Source: Candidatus Woesearchaeota archaeon (lineage in GTDB: Archaea; Nanobdellota; Nanobdellia; Woesearchaeales; JBJKQO01). Taken from it: a stretch of DNA of 64,000 nt. The stretch is taken from positions 591 to 64,590 of the forward strand of contig JBJKQO010000049.1 of assembly GCA_046705145.1 (NCBI GenBank). The letters run 5' to 3'. The translations under genes and the position numbers were made by a program. Positions 4,284-64,000 of this stretch are shown here, piece by piece. Position 1 is the first letter of the stretch. Every line of letters starts with the position of its first letter. The notes under the pieces are model-generated. The model did not search any database. It saw only the letters and a program-made list of their open reading frames with translations, and was not told the DNA's origin.

Positions 4284-6140
4284 TCACTCCCACTCTGTCG
4301 TTCCAGGGGGCTTGGCAGTAAGGTCGTAAACGACCCTTGATATGCCTTTCACTTTCTTTAGTATCTCTTTTACCATCTCGTCAACGACCTTTTCAGGAAT
4401 ATCTGCTCCTGGGACTGCAGGAACGCCAGTCATGAAGTCGTTTGTGATAAATGTCCTTATTGCAATACCTCTACTTCCTTTCATGCCGAAATCTACAGGA
4501 AACAGGATGACAGGGACCTGGCTTAGCTTTCTTATAAGATCATTCTTGTAAAGGATATCATTCACTATGTCATCAGCTTCCTGAAGCTGCCTTATCACGT
4601 CTTCTGTAAGGTGGGCAGGAGTTATGGTCCTGACATCTTTTTCTATCTTTTCCCCAAAAACATAAACTACGCGGTTGACCTTATGCACTTTTTTTGGGAT
4701 CTCTTTTGCGATGCTGACAAGCTTTTTCCAGTCTTTTTTTCCGCTTAACCCTACAAGGTAGCTGTAGCTTCTTGAGTCTCCCTGTACGCCCACAGTCTGC
4801 ACAGGCAGAAGCGAAGCAGAAACATCCTTGTCTGAAAATACCTTAAGCTGATCCTGTATGTTCTCAAAATCATCCGTGATGTATGGCTTGTCAGCGCATA
4901 TTATCCTTACTGCAAGACCAGGTCCAGGAAAAGGCTGCCTCCAGACTATCTCATCAGGAAGCCCGAGCATCTTTCCTAAGTTTCTTACCTCATCCTTATG
5001 ATAATCCTTAAGAGGCTCGATAACCCTTCCTTTTTTCCTAAGATCCCTTACAAGCTCTGTATCGTTATGATGGGTCTTGATAGTATCAGCATTTGATGAG
5101 GCAAGCTCTGATGCGCTTTCGATAAGATCAGGCCGAAGGGTTCCCTGGCAAAGAAAAACTTCATCAGGATCAAGGTCCAGGTCCTTTACTGCTTTTTCTG
5201 CAACCCTCATGAAAGTGTCTCCGATTATCTTTCTTTTTTCTTCAGGTGACACAGTCTCTTTTAGCCTTGATGTCTCCCTGCCACCTACTTTTGTCTTTGC
5301 ATCATAAAAGGACTGTGAAGCATCCACAACATCAAGCTGTATCCCGATCTTCTCAAGCACGTCTTTCACTTTTTTGCTTTCATCTTTTCTCATGAACCCG
5401 TTGTTGATGTGGATAGCATAAACATTATCTGGGCCTATTGCCTTGTTAAGAAGGGCTGCGCAGACAGTCGAGTCGACGCCGCCGCTTATGAGAAGAAGGA
5501 CTTTTTTGTCACCGACCTTTTTCCTTATCTCAGTTATCGCAATCTCTTCCCTGTTTTCCATGGTATAGTCGCCCTTAAACCCTGCGATCCTGAAAAGGAA
5601 ATTTGAAAGGACCTGTTTGCCGTTTTCTGTCAGGTCAACCTCTGGATGGAACTGCACCCCATATAGTTTCTTCTTCTTGTTCTCAAGACCTGCTATTATC
5701 TCCCCGGACTGGGCTATCACGCTAAGGGAATCAGCGACTATCCCCACGCTGTCTCCATGTGTCAGAAGGGCGTTTTGCCTCTCATGCAGGCCACTGAACA
5801 GATCTGACCCCTTGTTGACAACTATCTCATACTGGCCGTCTTCCCTAAGCGATTTCTTCTCGACGCTCCCTCCCATCTCATAGTTCAGAAGCTGCATCCC
5901 ATAACATATGCCAAGGACAGGAACACCCATGTCAAAAACTCCTTTTACCGGCTTAGGCGAATCTTTCTGATAGACGCTAAAACCAGAACCTGATATTATT
6001 ATCGCCTTGTACTTCTTCAGCTTGGAAAGAGGAGTTGTGATAGGAAGGATCTCTGATTCCACCTTCAGCTCCCTTACTTTCCTGTCAATTACCTTTCCGT
6101 ACTGTGCGCCTGCATCAAGAATAGCAAGTTTTTCTGCCAT
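4284..6140 (-). CDS. guaA: GMP synthase (glutamine-hydrolysing), fused GATase plus ATP-pyrophosphatase
   Basis: Class-I GATase motifs GICYGMQ (Cys nucleophile) and VQFHPEV. The PP-loop SGGVDSTV and a C-terminal dimerisation domain are present. The conserved start MAEKLAILDAGAQYG is at 6140; the track ORF extends to 6308. Confidence 0.85.
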   Translation of the reverse strand: MAEKLAILDAGAQYGKVIDRKVRELKVESEILPITTPLSKLKKYKAIIISGSGFSVYQKDSPKPVKGVFDMGVPVLGICYGMQLLNYEMGGSVEKKSLREDGQYEIVVNKGSDLFSGLHERQNALLTHGDSVGIVADSLSVIAQSGEIIAGLENKKKKLYGVQFHPEVDLTENGKQVLSNFLFRIAGFKGDYTMENREEIAITEIRKKVGDKKVLLLISGGVDSTVCAALLNKAIGPDNVYAIHINNGFMRKDESKKVKDVLEKIGIQLDVVDASQSFYDAKTKVGGRETSRLKETVSPEEKRKIIGDTFMRVAEKAVKDLDLDPDEVFLCQGTLRPDLIESASELASSNADTIKTHHNDTELVRDLRKKGRVIEPLKDYHKDEVRNLGKMLGLPDEIVWRQPFPGPGLAVRIICADKPYITDDFENIQDQLKVFSDKDVSASLLPVQTVGVQGDSRSYSYLVGLSGKKDWKKLVSIAKEIPKKVHKVNRVVYVFGEKIEKDVRTITPAHLTEDVIRQLQEADDIVNDILYKNDLIRKLSQVPVILFPVDFGMKGSRGIAIRTFITNDFMTGVPAVPGADIPEKVVDEMVKEILKKVKGISRVVYDLTAKPPGTTEWE

Positions 6141-6225
6141 GTGAAATGACAATAGAATGCGGTTTATATGTTTTTCTGAAATTATGTGAGCAAGATATTT
6201 ATACCAGACCCACTTATTCCCCTCC

Positions 6226-6624
6226 ATGCCACGCATCCAGATAGCAGACTGCATCATCGAGAAAGAGGGGAAGATTCTTATGCTTGCGAGGGCATTTCCT
6301 CCAAACAAAGGGAAGCTGGACCTTATGGGAGGATTTGTCGATTCCGGAGAGACCCCCGAGAAAGGTGCGGTCAGGGAAGCAAAAGAAGAGTCAGGATTTG
6401 AGGTAGAGATAATAAGAAAGCTAGGGACTTATGACTATTTTGACAGGCAGGAAAAGACGATGCACATATATGTGACAAAAGCGGTAGGGGGCAAGCTGGC
6501 AGAGTCTGTCGAAGGAAGTCTTATATGGCGAGAGCCAGGAAGCATAACCGAAGAAGAGCTTGCCTTTCCCCAGGTGCATGCTAGGGCGCTGAAGGATTTT
6601 ATGAATGAGAAGCATTCTAGATAA
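6226..6624 (+). CDS. Nudix (MutT-family) hydrolase
   Basis: The canonical Nudix box GGFVDSGETPEKGAVREAKEESGF fits Gx5Ex7REUxEExGU. Confidence 0.8.
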   Translation: MPRIQIADCIIEKEGKILMLARAFPPNKGKLDLMGGFVDSGETPEKGAVREAKEESGFEVEIIRKLGTYDYFDRQEKTMHIYVTKAVGGKLAESVEGSLIWREPGSITEEELAFPQVHARALKDFMNEKHSR

Positions 6625-7334: not shown

Positions 7335-8282
7335 ATGAAGCTTTTTATCCTTTCAAAACTTAACCAGGAGATGTCAATCGCAGAGGCATCTTCAGTGCTT
7401 GGGCTTGATCCCATAAAAACATTTGAAGGAGGGATGATCGCAAAAACAGGATCATCCGAATTTGACAGGCTCGCCTATACCAAAGGGGTATATGAAATCC
7501 TGTTCTCTTCTGACTTCAAGGGATTTCAGGATACCTTTATGAACCATCCATGGGCAGATTCTGTCAAAGGAAGCTTTTGTGTTAGGTCTCACACACCCAA
7601 ATTTGATGAGAAGATGCTTGCAGGCTACGTCTGGCACAAGCTCAAGAAGCCAAAAGTCAGGCTTGAAGACCCGGATTTTCTTATCGAGATATTTGAGGTA
7701 GAAGGAAAATTTCACTGCTGCAACAGCATCTGGCAGAACAAAGGTGGATTTGAGGAAAGAAAAGCCCATCTTAGGCCAAAGCTTGTCCCTGTATCACTTG
7801 ACCCCAGGCTTGCAAGAGCTCTTGTTAACCTGACAGGTATACGCAAAGGAAAGCTTCTTGACCCGTTCTGCGGCACTGGAGGGATACTGATCGAGACTGG
7901 GCTCATAGGGATCAAGCCTGTGGGGATTGACATAAATCCATGGATGGTCAAGAGCACAAATGAAAACCTGAAATTCTACAAGATAAAAGGAGGGGACATC
8001 AAGGAAGGTGATGCGCTTTTGTTAAATGAGTCATGGGACTATATCGTGACAGACCTTCCTTACGGGAAGAACACCGGAAAGATAGACACGAACAAGCTCT
8101 ACAAGGAGTTCATGAGTGTCCTTGGGAATGTGCTCAGGAAGAGGGCAGTCATAGTATTTCCGAAAGGCACAAAGGTAAACCTTATTGCCAAGGGGCTCCC
8201 TCTTAAGATCATATACGAGTTTGACTATTACATACACAAGTCGATGTCAAAAAGGATAGTTGTTCTTGAGAAGATCAAATAA
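7335..8282 (+). CDS. tRNA (guanine-N2)-methyltransferase, Trm11/Trm-G10 type (THUMP plus class I methyltransferase)
   Basis: N-terminal THUMP-like region. Methyltransferase motif I DPFCGTGGILIE and motif IV DLPYG are present. Confidence 0.65.
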   Translation: MKLFILSKLNQEMSIAEASSVLGLDPIKTFEGGMIAKTGSSEFDRLAYTKGVYEILFSSDFKGFQDTFMNHPWADSVKGSFCVRSHTPKFDEKMLAGYVWHKLKKPKVRLEDPDFLIEIFEVEGKFHCCNSIWQNKGGFEERKAHLRPKLVPVSLDPRLARALVNLTGIRKGKLLDPFCGTGGILIETGLIGIKPVGIDINPWMVKSTNENLKFYKIKGGDIKEGDALLLNESWDYIVTDLPYGKNTGKIDTNKLYKEFMSVLGNVLRKRAVIVFPKGTKVNLIAKGLPLKIIYEFDYYIHKSMSKRIVVLEKIK

Positions 8283-8284
8283 AA

Positions 8285-8426
8285 TGGGCCTGCCCGGACT
8301 CGAACCGGGGACCTCCGCCGTACTCAACAAAGCTTCGCTTAGTTGGTCGCCCAGCGAAGCTGTGCATGTGAAGGCGACGTCATCTGCAGCATACCCGAAA
8401 GTATGTAGCCACTAGACTACAGGCCC
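8285..8426 (-). tRNA. intron-containing tRNA, best model tRNA-Val(CAC) with two introns
   Basis: The reverse complement gives acceptor GGGCCTG/CAGGCCC with discriminator A, T-arm CCCGG-TTCGAGT-CCGGG and D-loop AGTGGCTA. The anticodon stem TCGCC/GGCGG is split by a 46-nt intron at 37/38 (genomic 8321..8366). That intron holds a 9-bp hairpin AGCTTCGCT/AGCGAAGCT. A second 23-nt insertion in the D-loop (8383..8405) forms the hairpin CATAC-TTTCGGG-GTATG. Removing both leaves a 73-nt cloverleaf with anticodon CAC (8368..8370). No CCA is encoded. An alternative reading is an Arg-TCG anticodon in the first hairpin. Confidence 0.55.
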
Positions 8427-8453
8427 AACCTTCAACAGGTAAGAACAGATGGT

Positions 8454-9152
8454 TTATAAGGGTTTTGGGTTAGGTGTTGCTTTTCCAAGATATGTGAATC
8501 TATCTTCTGTTAACTCCAGGGAGAATCCAGAAAACAGTTTTCTTAGTTTGTCCTCATCAAATCTTTCAGAGCTAAATGGCCCATGCTCTGTCTGTGCAAA
8601 AGTATAGTCTCCTTTGCTGGATACTTTTGAGAATCCTGGAAGTGACCTGTATGCTGATTCCTGTATCTTCTCTGATCTTTGAGAGTAAGTGCTGAACAGC
8701 ACCATCCCTCCTGGTTTAAGGATCCTTCTTATCTCCCGAATCGCCAAGTCTTTATCATTATCAAGGTTTCCGAGAAGGTTGAAGGATAAGACAATACAAT
8801 CAAAATATGAATCAGGATAACCTGTTTCTGTGATAGAGCCAACTTTGTATTTGTTTTTTGGCAGGTTTTCTTTACATAGTTGTACAGAAGTTTCATTGAT
8901 ATCAATCCCGTGTCCATGAGTTATGTGATTATCTAACCTGGATAAGATCCGTCCCTCACCACAACCCACATCAAGTATCCTGCCTGCAGGAATGTTCTTT
9001 TTGTAATAGCTTACCTCCTCTTCTAAGTACTCAAGCATCTCAGCAGGCAGGTTTGAATTAATCTTGTCCCATCTGCAATCCTTGTAAAAAGAATGGTTAA
9101 TAGCCATGATACCACATCTGTTACTACTCATTAGAGATTTAATATTTATCAA
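8454..9152 (-). CDS. class I SAM-dependent methyltransferase
   Basis: Motif I ILDVGCGEGRIL and motif post-I HGHGIDIN. An alternative start is MAINHSF at 9107. Confidence 0.6.
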   Translation of the reverse strand: MINIKSLMSSNRCGIMAINHSFYKDCRWDKINSNLPAEMLEYLEEEVSYYKKNIPAGRILDVGCGEGRILSRLDNHITHGHGIDINETSVQLCKENLPKNKYKVGSITETGYPDSYFDCIVLSFNLLGNLDNDKDLAIREIRRILKPGGMVLFSTYSQRSEKIQESAYRSLPGFSKVSSKGDYTFAQTEHGPFSSERFDEDKLRKLFSGFSLELTEDRFTYLGKATPNPKPL

Positions 9153-62783: not shown

Positions 62784-64000
62784 CTAACCCAGCTTGCTCA
62801 CATAGCCCCTTCTTGGCTCGTATATGTCTCCGCCGCGCCTGAGCCTTTCGATGACAGTCTCGACCTCGTCCTCATCCATGCCTTTCTCCTTTGCAAGCTT
62901 GCTTATCTCTTCTATGGGTATCATCTTTCCAAGCTTGTTCTCAAGCTCAGTTATTATCTCTTTTATCACAGAGATCTTTCCGCGCTGTGACGCAGTTATA
63001 CCTGTCGCGATCTTGTCTATGTCAATCGTTCCTGTCTCCTCATCAAACGCTATCTGCCTGAGGCAGTAGTTGAGAAGCTCGATAGCTCTTTTTGCATCCC
63101 TTCGCCTTATCATCTTGGCAAGCCTGACCTTTGCAACTGCCTCAGTGATCCTTACAAGGCCCTCAAGCTGCCTTGTCGAGATAGGGATGCTTTTAACGCC
63201 TTCACCAGTCCCCTTGGACCTCATGGTAAGATAATAGTTCTTAAGCTCAGACATTGCCTCATCAGAAAGCTTTGGCTTGCAATGGGTCTTGGCATAAGCG
63301 ATATACTTCCTAAGAAATTCCGTGCTTACCTCCATCTCTCCGACAAAAGGGTTCTGGTGCAGCTTAAGGATGAACTCTGCCATCATGTCATCCTTCTTCT
63401 CATCAGGAAGATCCTTTATAGGAAATATCAGGTCGAACCTGTTGATAAGGGTAGGAGGAAGATCTATCTGCCTTGCTATGACATCGTTAGGGTCAAACCT
63501 TCCGTACTTTGGGTTTGCTGCAGCAAGAACAGTTGTCTGTGAATGAAGTGTTGCCTGGATATTCGCTTTTGATATAGTGACACTCTGCTGCTCAAGAGCC
63601 TCGTGCATCGCGCTCCTGTCTTCCTTGCTCATCTTATCAAGCTCATCTATCATGCACATGCCCTTGTTTGCCAGGACCAATGCACCTGCTTCAAGGCTCC
63701 AACCCTGAAGAAAATCATCCTTGACCACCGAAGCAGTATTGTGGACCAGCACGCCATCAACAACAAAATTGTGAGAGTCTTCAACAGTTAGGTCATAGAC
63801 AAAACTGTAACCGGGAACCTTTTCTTTTATTGAAACAACCTTTTCCCAAAATATATCGCTTTTTGCAATCTTTTTGATTTCTTCACATCCCTCTTCTTTT
63901 GGGATAAGATCAAGCAGCTTTTTTAAGGCTTCATTTGACAGGTTCTTATGCCAGCCTGCTTTTTTCAAAGGCACCTTATTCTTTTGCATAAGGCCTTTTA
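62784..64000 (-). CDS. mcm: MCM replicative helicase, 3' part only (gene continues beyond the window), containing an intein
   Basis: The extein part carries TASVVKDDFLQGWSLEAGALVLANKGMCMIDELDKM (Walker B), the sensor/arginine finger region NRFDLIF and a C-terminal wH. The frame is open to the window edge at 64000. Confidence 0.8.
   Translation of the reverse strand, partial: KGLMQKNKVPLKKAGWHKNLSNEALKKLLDLIPKEEGCEEIKKIAKSDIFWEKVVSIKEKVPGYSFVYDLTVEDSHNFVVDGVLVHNTASVVKDDFLQGWSLEAGALVLANKGMCMIDELDKMSKEDRSAMHEALEQQSVTISKANIQATLHSQTTVLAAANPKYGRFDPNDVIARQIDLPPTLINRFDLIFPIKDLPDEKKDDMMAEFILKLHQNPFVGEMEVSTEFLRKYIAYAKTHCKPKLSDEAMSELKNYYLTMRSKGTGEGVKSIPISTRQLEGLVRITEAVAKVRLAKMIRRRDAKRAIELLNYCLRQIAFDEETGTIDIDKIATGITASQRGKISVIKEIITELENKLGKMIPIEEISKLAKEKGMDEDEVETVIERLRRGGDIYEPRRGYVSKLG
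63738..64000 (-). other. intein (C-terminal portion) inserted in MCM
   Basis: ...GYSFVYDLTVEDSHNFVVDGVLVHN immediately followed by the extein residue T. This matches the intein C-terminal block (penultimate His, terminal Asn, +1 Thr). Upstream intein sequence (KIAKSDIFWEKVVSIKEK...) continues past the window end. Confidence 0.6.

What the first reader, a model, noticed from the sequence alone, without database searches (positions are those of the whole stretch)
8285..8426. tRNA gene with two introns, including one in the D-loop
A 142-nt tRNA gene has clear acceptor and T-arms. Its anticodon stem halves (TCGCC and GGCGG) are separated by a 46-nt intron carrying a 9-bp hairpin. A further 23-nt hairpin-forming insertion interrupts the D-loop. 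Removing both gives a canonical 73-nt cloverleaf with anticodon CAC (Val). Multiple or non-canonical-position introns are typical of certain archaeal lineages and constrain which splicing endonuclease type the organism has.
Basis: partly seen in the sequence, partly recalled or inferred. Interest (0 to 1): 0.55.

Follow-up and report, generated by a model that had tools for sequence, protein, structure and literature searches.

The report
Two-intron archaeal tRNA-Val gene
This is a real valine tRNA gene from a tiny DPANN-type archaeon, interrupted by two small protein-spliced introns (one in the D-loop, one next to the anticodon); this is a known kind of gene that standard tRNA finders miss.

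Summary
Window 8285-8426, on the minus strand, is a 142-nt tRNA-Val(CAC) gene. It has a 23-nt intron in the D-loop, just 5' of A21 (20a/21), and a 46-nt intron at the canonical 37/38 site.

- **Detection:** ARAGORN in default mode and Rfam find nothing. After both inserts are removed in silico, ARAGORN calls a canonical 73-nt tRNA-Val(CAC).
- **Orthologues:** The predicted product is 70/73 identical to an intron-less tRNA-Val(CAC) of a Woesearchaeota MAG. Both inserts align as clean indels.
- **37/38 intron:** It folds on its own into a strict bulge-helix-bulge motif.
- **D-loop intron:** It forms a relaxed (HBh'-type) motif. The same site is occupied in about 24 distinct tRNA-Val genes from DPANN MAGs and metagenomes. 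Intron sequences differ, but the helix next to the bulge is kept by compensatory changes.
- **Rival:** The tRNA-Arg(TCG) reading fails because it has no acceptable D-arm.
- **Precedent:** Methanopyrus kandleri pre-tRNA-Glu(UUC) has a 20b/21 intron plus a 37/38 intron.

This is a new member of a known kind. No splicing endonuclease gene lies in the window, so the enzyme type cannot be read here.

The parts
8285..8426 (-). Whole tRNA-Val(CAC) gene, 142 nt, from G1 (8426) to discriminator A73 (8285). No CCA is encoded.
   Evidence: Sequence read. ARAGORN calls the in-silico spliced product tRNA-Val(CAC).
8407..8426 (-). Exon 1 (G1-U20a): the 5' acceptor strand, U8 A9, the 5' D-stem GUCU, and D-loop AGUGGCU.
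8384..8406 (-). D-loop intron, 23 nt (ACAUACUUUCGGGUAUGCUGCAG), at 20a/21. The cut CAUAC...GCAGA (8383-8405) gives the same product.
   Evidence: It aligns as a clean indel against L006, L010 and L008. The same site is occupied in about 24 other tRNA-Val genes.
8409..8412 (-). 5' strand of the central 4-bp helix H of the D-loop motif (G15 U16 G18 G19 = GUGG). It pairs with CUGC at 8386-8389.
   Evidence: Across 20 homologues 95% of cells in this helix are paired (GUGG with CCAC, CUAC or CUGC). The helix also appears in the MFE fold.
8386..8389 (-). 3' strand of helix H of the D-loop motif (CUGC, inside the intron).
8406..8408 (-). 5' splice-site bulge CU|A of the D-loop intron.
   Evidence: It is a 3-nt bulge between helix H and helix h'. 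The CUA sequence is invariant in the homologues because the search pattern fixed it.
8390..8405 (-). Helix h' of the D-loop intron: CAUACU/GGUAUG closing a UUCG loop.
   Evidence: All 5 tested pairs show compensatory changes in 20 homologues, and 89% of cells are paired. The mean run is 4.4 consecutive bp against 0.92 +/- 0.24 in permuted controls.
8383..8385 (-). 3' splice-site bulge AG|A of the D-loop intron (the last A is A21 of the tRNA).
   Evidence: It is a 3-nt bulge only if A14 pairs with U22, or if the D-stem forms. The MFE fold instead pairs AGAU with GUCU, so this side of the motif is relaxed.
8367..8383 (-). Exon 2 (A21-A37): the 3' D-stem UGAC, G26, the 5' anticodon stem UCGCC, and loop UUCACA.
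8368..8370 (-). Anticodon CAC (Val).
   Evidence: ARAGORN call on the spliced product. The intron-less orthologue L006 has the identical anticodon loop and junction.
8321..8366 (-). Canonical 37/38 intron, 46 nt (UGCACAG...GAGUA).
   Evidence: The MFE fold gives a strict hBHBh' motif. Helix H is UUCA (8369-8372) paired with UGAG (8323-8326). The 3-nt bulges are CA|U (8366-8368) and UA|C (8320-8322). Helix h' is GCA/UGU plus the 9-bp hairpin. The intron aligns as a clean indel.
8285..8320 (-). Exon 3 (C38-A73): the 3' anticodon stem GGCGG, variable loop AGGUC, the T-arm, the 3' acceptor strand and A73.
   Evidence: Its last 30 nt match exactly only DPANN MAGs among the GTDB species representatives.
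8453..8460 (-). TATA-like box CTTATAAA, at -34 to -27 from the mature 5' end, preceded by an A-rich BRE-like stretch. It overlaps the stop codon of the upstream methyltransferase gene.
   Evidence: Sequence. Most related tRNA-Val loci carry a TTTAAAA/TTATAAA-type box at -35 to -25. Promoter function is inferred, not shown.
8281..8284 (-). T-run (TTTT, then ATTT) directly after A73, a likely archaeal termination signal. It overlaps the stop codon of the convergent Trm-G10-like gene (7335-8282, +).
   Evidence: Sequence. Terminator function is inferred.

Best explanation
Window 8285-8426 (minus strand) is a functional tRNA-Val(CAC) gene of a DPANN archaeon (Woesearchaeota/Nanoarchaeia-like). It is split into three exons by two protein-spliced (bulge-helix-bulge) introns.

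Inferred steps, none shown here:
1. The gene is transcribed from a TATA box about 30 nt upstream, and transcription ends at the T-run after A73.
2. In the precursor, the 46-nt intron at 37/38 forms a strict hBHBh' motif. The anticodon stem is continued by a 4-bp helix, U32-A35 paired with UGAG of the intron. That helix is flanked by the 3-nt bulges CA|U and UA|C.
3. The 23-nt D-loop intron forms a relaxed motif. D-loop residues GUGG pair with CUGC at the intron's 3' end (4 bp, two of them G-U). The bulge CU|A and the intron hairpin lie on one side, and AG|A lies on the other.
4. The archaeal splicing endonuclease (EndA) cuts after the second nucleotide of each bulge.
5. An RtcB-type ligase joins the three exons, RNase P and a 3' nuclease trim the ends, and CCA is added.

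The product is a 73-nt tRNA with D-arm GUCU-AGUGGCUA-UGAC. The relaxed D-loop site requires an EndA with broad substrate specificity.

Shown here: the gene anatomy, the motifs, conservation of the D-loop site with covariation, and identity of the product to intron-less orthologues.
For: - ARAGORN calls a canonical 73-nt tRNA-Val(CAC) once both inserts are removed.
- The product is 70/73 identical to the intron-less tRNA-Val(CAC) of L006, which is itself an Rfam tRNA hit at 61.8 bits and an ARAGORN tRNA-Val(cac).
- Alignment A1 shows both inserts as clean indels at GGCU|AUGAC and UUCACA|CGGCGG.
- The unconstrained MFE fold of the precursor produces the strict BHB at 37/38: two 3-nt bulges, a 4-bp helix containing C34 and A35, and helix h'. 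This matches the published description of the canonical motif (PMC4090602).
- D-loop site, constrained scan: the metagenome scan found about 24 distinct tRNA-Val genes of all three isoacceptors with an intron of 16-46 nt at this place.
- D-loop site, unconstrained scan: a genome scan that did not constrain the intron found three more cases ending in CCAC-AGA|UGAC.
- On 20 homologues, 93.8% of cells pair against 76.8 +/- 1.6 in shuffles. The covariation score is 0.521 against 0.174 +/- 0.022 (0 of 500 shuffles reach it). All 5 h' pairs show double changes, and slid controls reach at most 0.226.
- A TATA-like box lies at -34 to -27, as in most relatives, and a T-run follows A73.
- Lineage: exact 30-nt 3' matches occur only in Woesearchaeota/Nanoarchaeota MAGs. 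Named homologues of the neighbouring gene come from the same groups. Archaeal PCNA, MCM, SRP54 and L10e genes lie in the window.
Against: - There is no RNA-level evidence of transcription or splicing.
- No EndA, RtcB or CCA-adding enzyme gene was recognised among 35 ORFs of the window.
- The D-loop motif is not a strict BHB. Its central helix has two G-U pairs. The 3' bulge needs either a single A14-U22 pair or the 3-bp D-stem to close it. The thermodynamic MFE prefers GUCU/AGAU pairing, which abolishes that bulge. The two-BHB model scores -54 to -57 kcal/mol against an MFE of -62.2.
- The metagenome search pattern fixed the exon sequence and the AGA bulge, so conservation of those parts is not independent evidence.
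- The organism's identity is inferred, because the source contig carries no name.
Confidence: 0.9

Rival explanations
1. It is a single-intron tRNA-Arg(TCG). The hairpin CAUAC-UUUCGGG-GUAUG is the anticodon arm, and everything from CUGCAG to GGCGG is one long insert.
For: The loop UUUCGGG has U33 and a purine at position 37, so taken alone it looks like an anticodon loop.
Against: - The resulting 67-nt molecule has a D-stem of only 2 pairs and a 5-nt D-loop. ARAGORN cannot assign an anticodon and reports 'tRNA-?(Glu|Arg)(tc)'.
- No BHB motif flanks the ~75-nt insert that this reading requires.
- In relatives, the hairpin at this position has unrelated loops and lengths, while UGAC-G-NNNCC-UUCACA is conserved.
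- Intron-less orthologues lack the hairpin altogether.
Confidence: 0.01
2. It is a decaying or disabled tRNA pseudogene whose inserts are not removed.
For: Standard finders do not detect it. The D-loop motif is thermodynamically sub-optimal, with two G-U pairs in the central helix. The rest of the genome is not available, so a second tRNA-Val(CAC) copy cannot be excluded.
Against: - All exon positions keep cloverleaf pairing and are 70/73 identical to an intron-less orthologue. One of the three differences (position 5, C vs U) lies in a stem and still pairs (C-G in the window, U-G in L006). The other two (positions 9 and 26) are unpaired.
- Both splice motifs are intact.
- The TATA box and the T-run are in the expected places.
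- Many relatives carry the same architecture, including other genes with two and possibly three introns. That is not expected of independent decay.
Confidence: 0.04
3. The 37/38 intron is spliced, but the D-loop insert is retained in the mature tRNA as an extra arm (an expansion rather than an intron).
For: The Rfam tRNA model tolerates a 21-nt D-loop insert in L009 at 57.8 bits. D-loop length is naturally variable around positions 20a and 20b.
Against: - The geometry is conserved at exactly BHB spacing: a 3-nt bulge, a 4-bp helix using G15-G19, a 3-nt bulge, and a covarying h' helix.
- Pairing G18 and G19 with the insert would destroy the D-loop/T-loop tertiary contacts of a mature tRNA (established tRNA structure, from my own knowledge).
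- Insert lengths vary from 16 to 46 nt with no sequence conservation.
- The analogous M. kandleri 20b/21 insert is excised in vitro (PMC5829648).
Confidence: 0.03

Closest known systems
Methanopyrus kandleri pre-tRNA-Glu(UUC): relaxed HBh' intron at 20b/21 in the D-loop plus a canonical 37/38 intron (Kaneta et al. 2018, PMC5829648)
   Same: The architecture is the same. One intron lies immediately 5' of A21 in the D-loop with a relaxed (HBh'-type) motif, and a strict BHB intron lies at 37/38 in the same gene. Splicing of that substrate by a broad-specificity EndA was shown in vitro.
   Different: The isotype differs (Val, not Glu), as does the lineage (a DPANN archaeon of about 43% G+C, not a hyperthermophilic euryarchaeon). 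The intron sequences are unrelated. In M. kandleri this is the single non-canonical intron of the genome, whereas here the site recurs in many tRNA-Val genes of the lineage.
Multiple-intron tRNA genes of Thermoproteales and other Crenarchaeota, for example Pyrobaculum tRNA-Pro(UGG) with introns at 25/26, 37/38 and 56/57, and A. pernix tRNA-Thr(UGU) with a D-loop intron (Sugahara 2007/2008; Hirata 2011; cited in PMC4090602, PMC4033280, PMC5829648)
   Same: These genes also have up to three EndA-dependent introns, non-canonical positions including the D-loop, and BHB, HBh' or hBH motifs. They are also hard for standard tRNA finders to detect.
   Different: The phylum differs and the endonuclease probably does too: (alpha-beta)2 with loop L1 in TACK archaea, against alpha4 with loop L3 reported for DPANN. 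No intron sequence similarity was looked for or expected.
Disrupted tRNA genes of DPANN archaea: ARMAN-1/2 with an epsilon2 EndA, and the Woesearchaeota/Pacearchaeota genomes surveyed by Kaneta et al. 2018
   Same: The superphylum is the same. [quoted passage not shown]
   Different: The papers I read do not describe this particular conserved tRNA-Val 20a/21 intron. The EndA of the window organism is unknown.

Membership tests
tRNA (class I), isotype Val | Cloverleaf with a 7-bp acceptor stem, D-arm, 5-bp anticodon stem with a 7-nt loop, 5-nt variable loop, and T-arm with a UUCRA loop, after intron removal | tested here: met
   ARAGORN calls the 73-nt spliced product tRNA-Val(cac). The D-stem has a U13-U22 mismatch that the intron-less orthologues L006, L008 and L010 share.
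tRNA (class I), isotype Val | Anticodon NAC and close similarity to recognised tRNA-Val genes | tested here: met
   The anticodon is CAC. The product is 70/73 identical to the L006 tRNA-Val(CAC), 69/73 to L010 Val(GAC) and 65/73 to L008 Val(TAC). These genes are Rfam RF00005 hits at 58-67 bits.
Archaeal canonical BHB tRNA intron (37/38) | Position one nucleotide 3' of the anticodon | tested here: met
   Intron at 8321-8366, between A37 and C38. The junction UUCACA|CGGCGG is identical to that of intron-less L006.
Archaeal canonical BHB tRNA intron (37/38) | Two 3-nt bulges on opposite strands, separated by a 4-bp helix that includes the first two anticodon bases, and flanked by helices h and h' | tested here: met
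   The unconstrained MFE fold gives UUCA/UGAG (4 bp), bulges CAU and UAC, the anticodon stem as h, and GCA/UGU plus a 9-bp helix as h'. The definition comes from PMC4033280 and PMC4090602.
Archaeal non-canonical (relaxed BHB: HBh'/hBH) tRNA intron | Located outside 37/38, with at least one 3-nt splice-site bulge flanked by two helices | tested here: met
   The intron lies at 20a/21. Bulge CUA lies between H (GUGG/CUGC) and h' (CAUACU/GGUAUG).
Archaeal non-canonical (relaxed BHB: HBh'/hBH) tRNA intron | A second 3-nt bulge exactly 4 bp away on the other strand (as in a strict BHB) | tested here: inconclusive
   AGA lies 4 bp from CUA, at the right place. It is a closed 3-nt bulge only if A14-U22 forms. 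The MFE fold pairs AGAU with GUCU instead. The model structure is 5-8 kcal/mol above the MFE.
Archaeal non-canonical (relaxed BHB: HBh'/hBH) tRNA intron | The motif is kept in homologues by compensatory change, and intron-less homologues share the exon junction | tested here: met
   All 5 h' pairs show double changes. The covariation score is 0.521 against 0.174 in shuffles (0 of 500 reach it). The permutation control is and the clean indel.
Archaeal EndA-dependent splicing system | A splicing endonuclease (EndA) with broad specificity and an RtcB-type ligase encoded in the genome | not testable with these tools
   Pfam scans of 35 window ORFs gave no tRNA-intron endonuclease or RtcB hit. The rest of the genome is not available, and the source contig is only 68.6 kb.
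Archaeal EndA-dependent splicing system | Excision and ligation observed at the RNA level | not testable with these tools
   No transcriptome data are available.
   The product is 67 nt with a 2-pair D-stem, and ARAGORN gives an undetermined anticodon.

The most novel reading that the evidence does not exclude
The 20a/21 D-loop intron is an old feature of tRNA-Val genes across Woesearchaeota/Nanoarchaeia-type DPANN archaea. It is present in all three isoacceptors and is often combined with 37/38 and T-loop introns, giving up to three introns per gene. It would be maintained either by vertical inheritance under selection or by gene conversion between Val genes. It would be processed by a DPANN alpha4-type EndA whose L3 loop confers relaxed specificity. 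Such genes would then account for part of the 'missing tRNAs' in DPANN genome bins, because current BHB models were trained on Crenarchaeota, Euryarchaeota and Thaumarchaeota.
Probability: 0.5. Interest if true: 0.4.

Novelty: new member of a known kind. Interest (0 to 1): 0.27.

Why it matters
- **Annotation:** Without intron-aware parsing this genome would seem to lack tRNA-Val(CAC). Default tools mislabel relatives as Cys, Gly or Trp. That distorts estimates of decoding capacity and completeness for DPANN bins.
- **Biology:** A relaxed D-loop splice site predicts a broad-specificity splicing endonuclease in this organism. The recurrent tRNA-Val site also gives a concrete, alignable case for studying how non-canonical tRNA introns persist in reduced genomes.
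- **Limit:** Nothing here challenges current understanding of archaeal tRNA splicing.

Tried and rejected
- ARAGORN with introns allowed, run on the raw precursor, returns a spurious tRNA-Asn(att) with a 49-nt intron, a 2-bp D-stem and a long extra arm. I rejected it as an artefact of forcing a single anticodon-loop intron.
- With only the D-loop insert removed, ARAGORN finds Val(cac) but places a 26-nt intron and a long variable arm. With only the 37/38 intron removed it calls a spurious Cys(gca).
- Rfam at E<=10 on the locus gives only a chance hit, HPnc0260 at 22 bits.
- I tested the tRNA-Arg(TCG) alternative explicitly and rejected it.
- I looked by eye for a C/D-box sRNA inside the introns and found no C box (RUGAUGA) or D box (CUGA). 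The introns are also too short to hold one.
- BLAST of both introns against the window and all fetched loci found no other copy, so there is no sign of a mobile or repeated element.
- Exact-protein look-ups for the neighbouring gene failed. Its nearest homologue (53% identity, L046) has no adjacent tRNA. No close relative of this exact locus could therefore be recovered, and neither the GTDB nor the metagenome scan contained the window's own sequence.
- No EndA was found in the window.

Full report
**1. What is in the sequence**

The feature lies on the minus strand at window 8285-8426. Read 5'->3' it is GGGCCUG-UA-GUCU-AGUGGCU[ACAUACUUUCGGGUAUGCUGCAG]A-UGAC-G-UCGCC-UUCACA[UGCACAGCUUCGCUGGGCGACCAACUAAGCGAAGCUUUGUUGAGUA]C-GGCGG-AGGUC-CCCGG-UUCGAGU-CCGGG-CAGGCCC-A.

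- ARAGORN in default mode and Rfam at gathering thresholds find no tRNA anywhere in the 64 kb.
- A T-arm motif scan finds only this one tRNA-like site.
- After the bracketed 23 nt and 46 nt are removed, ARAGORN calls a canonical 73-nt tRNA-Val(CAC).

**2. Is it real?**

A scan of one genome per GTDB species with the last 30 nt of the gene gave 10 loci. All are DPANN MAGs: Woesearchaeota, Nanoarchaeota/Nanoarchaeia, or unclassified 'archaeon'.

- Intron-less tRNA-Val genes among them include L006 (CAC), L010 (GAC) and L008 (TAC). ARAGORN recognises them, and the Rfam tRNA model scores them at 58-67 bits.
- The predicted spliced product of the window gene is 70/73 identical to L006.
- In alignment A1 the two window inserts are clean gaps at GGCU|AUGAC and UUCACA|CGGCGG. 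This gives an independent check on both exon junctions.

**3. The 37/38 intron**

The unconstrained MFE fold of the precursor extends the anticodon stem by a 4-bp helix, U32 U33 C34 A35 paired with UGAG.

- Two 3-nt bulges, CA|U and UA|C, flank that helix on opposite strands.
- Beyond them come GCA/UGU, a C-U mismatch and the 9-bp hairpin.
- This is a strict hBHBh' motif with the first two anticodon bases in the central helix, as the reviews describe (PMC4033280 and PMC4090602).
- Cutting after the second nucleotide of each bulge gives the 37/38 junction. That cleavage rule is from my own knowledge of the Thompson & Daniels and Marck & Grosjean descriptions.

**4. The D-loop intron**

The proposed motif is as follows.

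| Element | Sequence |
|---|---|
| Central helix H | G15 U16 G18 G19 paired with CUGC (two G-C and two G-U pairs) |
| 5' bulge | C20 U20a / A |
| Helix h' | CAUACU/GGUAUG around a UUCG loop |
| 3' bulge | A G / A21 |

- Cutting after the second bulge nucleotide on both sides gives the observed orthologous junction.
- The 5' half is a well-formed HBh' unit.
- The 3' bulge is closed only by A14-U22 or by the 3-bp D-stem.
- The energy model prefers a competitor in which AGAU pairs with GUCU. The two-BHB model scores -54 to -57 kcal/mol against an MFE of -62.2.

**5. Comparative support for the D-loop intron**

- Three GTDB loci found without any constraint on the intron (L004 with 46 nt, L005/L007 with 17 nt, L009 with 21 nt) carry an insert at the same place, ending CCAC-AGA|UGAC.
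- A metagenome scan for GTCTAGTGGCTA-N12-42-CAGATGACR gave 35 loci. About 24 are distinct tRNA-Val genes (12 TAC, 6 CAC and 5 GAC, plus L040, whose anticodon the script mis-parsed and which is probably GAC) with inserts of 16-46 nt. The remainder are ordinary tRNAs or chance matches.
- The strand opposite GUGG is CCAC in 13 genes, CUAC in 3 and CUGC in 3, with five other variants occurring once each.
- The helix directly after the CUA bulge has 23 different sequences. It averages 4.4 consecutive pairs, against 0.92 +/- 0.24 when intron ends are permuted between genes.
- A formal count was made on 20 trimmed sequences (alignment A2; intron interiors removed by me). It gives 93.8% paired cells against 76.8 +/- 1.6. 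The covariation score is 0.521 against 0.174 +/- 0.022 (0 of 500 shuffles reach it). All five h' pairs have double changes, and slid controls reach at most 0.226.
- Caveat: the exon sequence and the AGA bulge were fixed by the search pattern, so only H and h' are informative.

**6. Rivals**

- tRNA-Arg(TCG): this parse yields a 67-nt molecule with a 2-pair D-stem and an unassignable anticodon. Relatives lacking the hairpin, or carrying different ones, also contradict it.
- Pseudogene: this is unlikely given intact pairing and intact motifs. A TATA-like box lies at -34 to -27, as in most related loci, and a T-run follows A73.
- Retained D-loop expansion: this is unlikely because the insert keeps exact BHB spacing and sequesters G18 and G19.

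**7. Context and organism**

- The window encodes archaeal PCNA, MCM, SRP54 and L10e.
- The convergent neighbour (7335-8282) is a Trm-G10/Trm11-like methyltransferase. Its named homologues come from Woesearchaeota and Nanoarchaeota, and the best non-self hit is only 53% identical.
- The source is an unnamed NCBI contig of 68,586 nt.
- No EndA or RtcB gene was recognised in the window, so the endonuclease type cannot be read here.
- Kaneta et al. 2018 report that DPANN lineages, including a Woesearchaeota genome, have alpha4 EndAs with an L3 loop. They link this to increased tRNA gene disruption and state that incomplete tRNA sets point to undetected disrupted genes.
- The BHB models of tRNAscan-SE 2.0 were trained on Crenarchaeota/Euryarchaeota and Thaumarchaeota.

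**8. Verdict**

It is a new member of a known kind: an archaeal multi-intron tRNA gene with a direct experimental precedent for the same architecture. The modest added value is twofold. First, the 20a/21 site recurs widely in DPANN tRNA-Val genes, with covariation. Second, standard tools miss or mislabel these genes.

Noticed in passing
window 22329-45086 (-): A single 7,586-aa ORF occupies about 36% of the window. Pfam finds repeated Laminin_G_3/LamG, GLUG and bacterial Ig-like (Big_7, Big_13) domains. It looks like a giant surface or adhesion protein of the kind reported in DPANN archaea (from my own knowledge).
   Followed up: partly
window 62784-63986 (-): An MCM helicase ORF fragment runs off towards the window end. 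It begins with an Intein_splicing domain hit directly before the MCM P-loop domain, so the MCM gene probably carries an intein.
   Followed up: no
L011, L028, L029, L030, L033, L036, L037, L042 (metagenome loci): These related tRNA-Val genes carry the same D-loop intron plus a large insert inside the T-loop (after UUCRA). L035 appears to have three introns (D-loop, 37/38 and T-loop). L040 probably has a second intron at 33/34. None of these parses was validated.
   Followed up: partly
L004 and L005/L007 (contigs JBDRIN010000023, 29 and 107, one MAG): Two different Val isoacceptors of the same MAG each have a D-loop intron at the same site: CAC with 46 nt and GAC with 17 nt. The intron sequences are unrelated. 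This suggests an old insertion or repeated targeting of this site.
   Followed up: no
L002, L005, L009: ARAGORN in default mode mislabels intron-containing tRNA-Val genes as tRNA-Cys(aca), tRNA-Gly(tcc) and tRNA-Trp(cca). It misses L004 entirely. Rfam tolerates the 21-nt insert of L009 (57.8 bits) but misses L004 and the window gene.
   Followed up: yes
window 7335-8282 (+) and 8454-9152 (-): The tRNA gene is tightly packed between two methyltransferase genes. The stop codon of a Trm-G10/Trm11-like tRNA methyltransferase overlaps the tRNA's T-run. The stop codon of the upstream SAM-methyltransferase overlaps the tRNA's TATA-like box.
   Followed up: partly
window 4284-6308 (-): The GMP synthase ORF has the glutamine amidotransferase and ATP-pyrophosphatase/C-terminal domains fused in one 674-aa product. 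Many archaea encode these as two separate subunits (from my own knowledge).
   Followed up: no
L046 5481-5753 (-): The nearest relative's locus (53% identical Trm-G10-like gene) has an archaeal SRP RNA (Rfam RF01857, 144 bits) in the intergenic region instead of a tRNA. No SRP RNA was detected in the window itself.
   Followed up: yes
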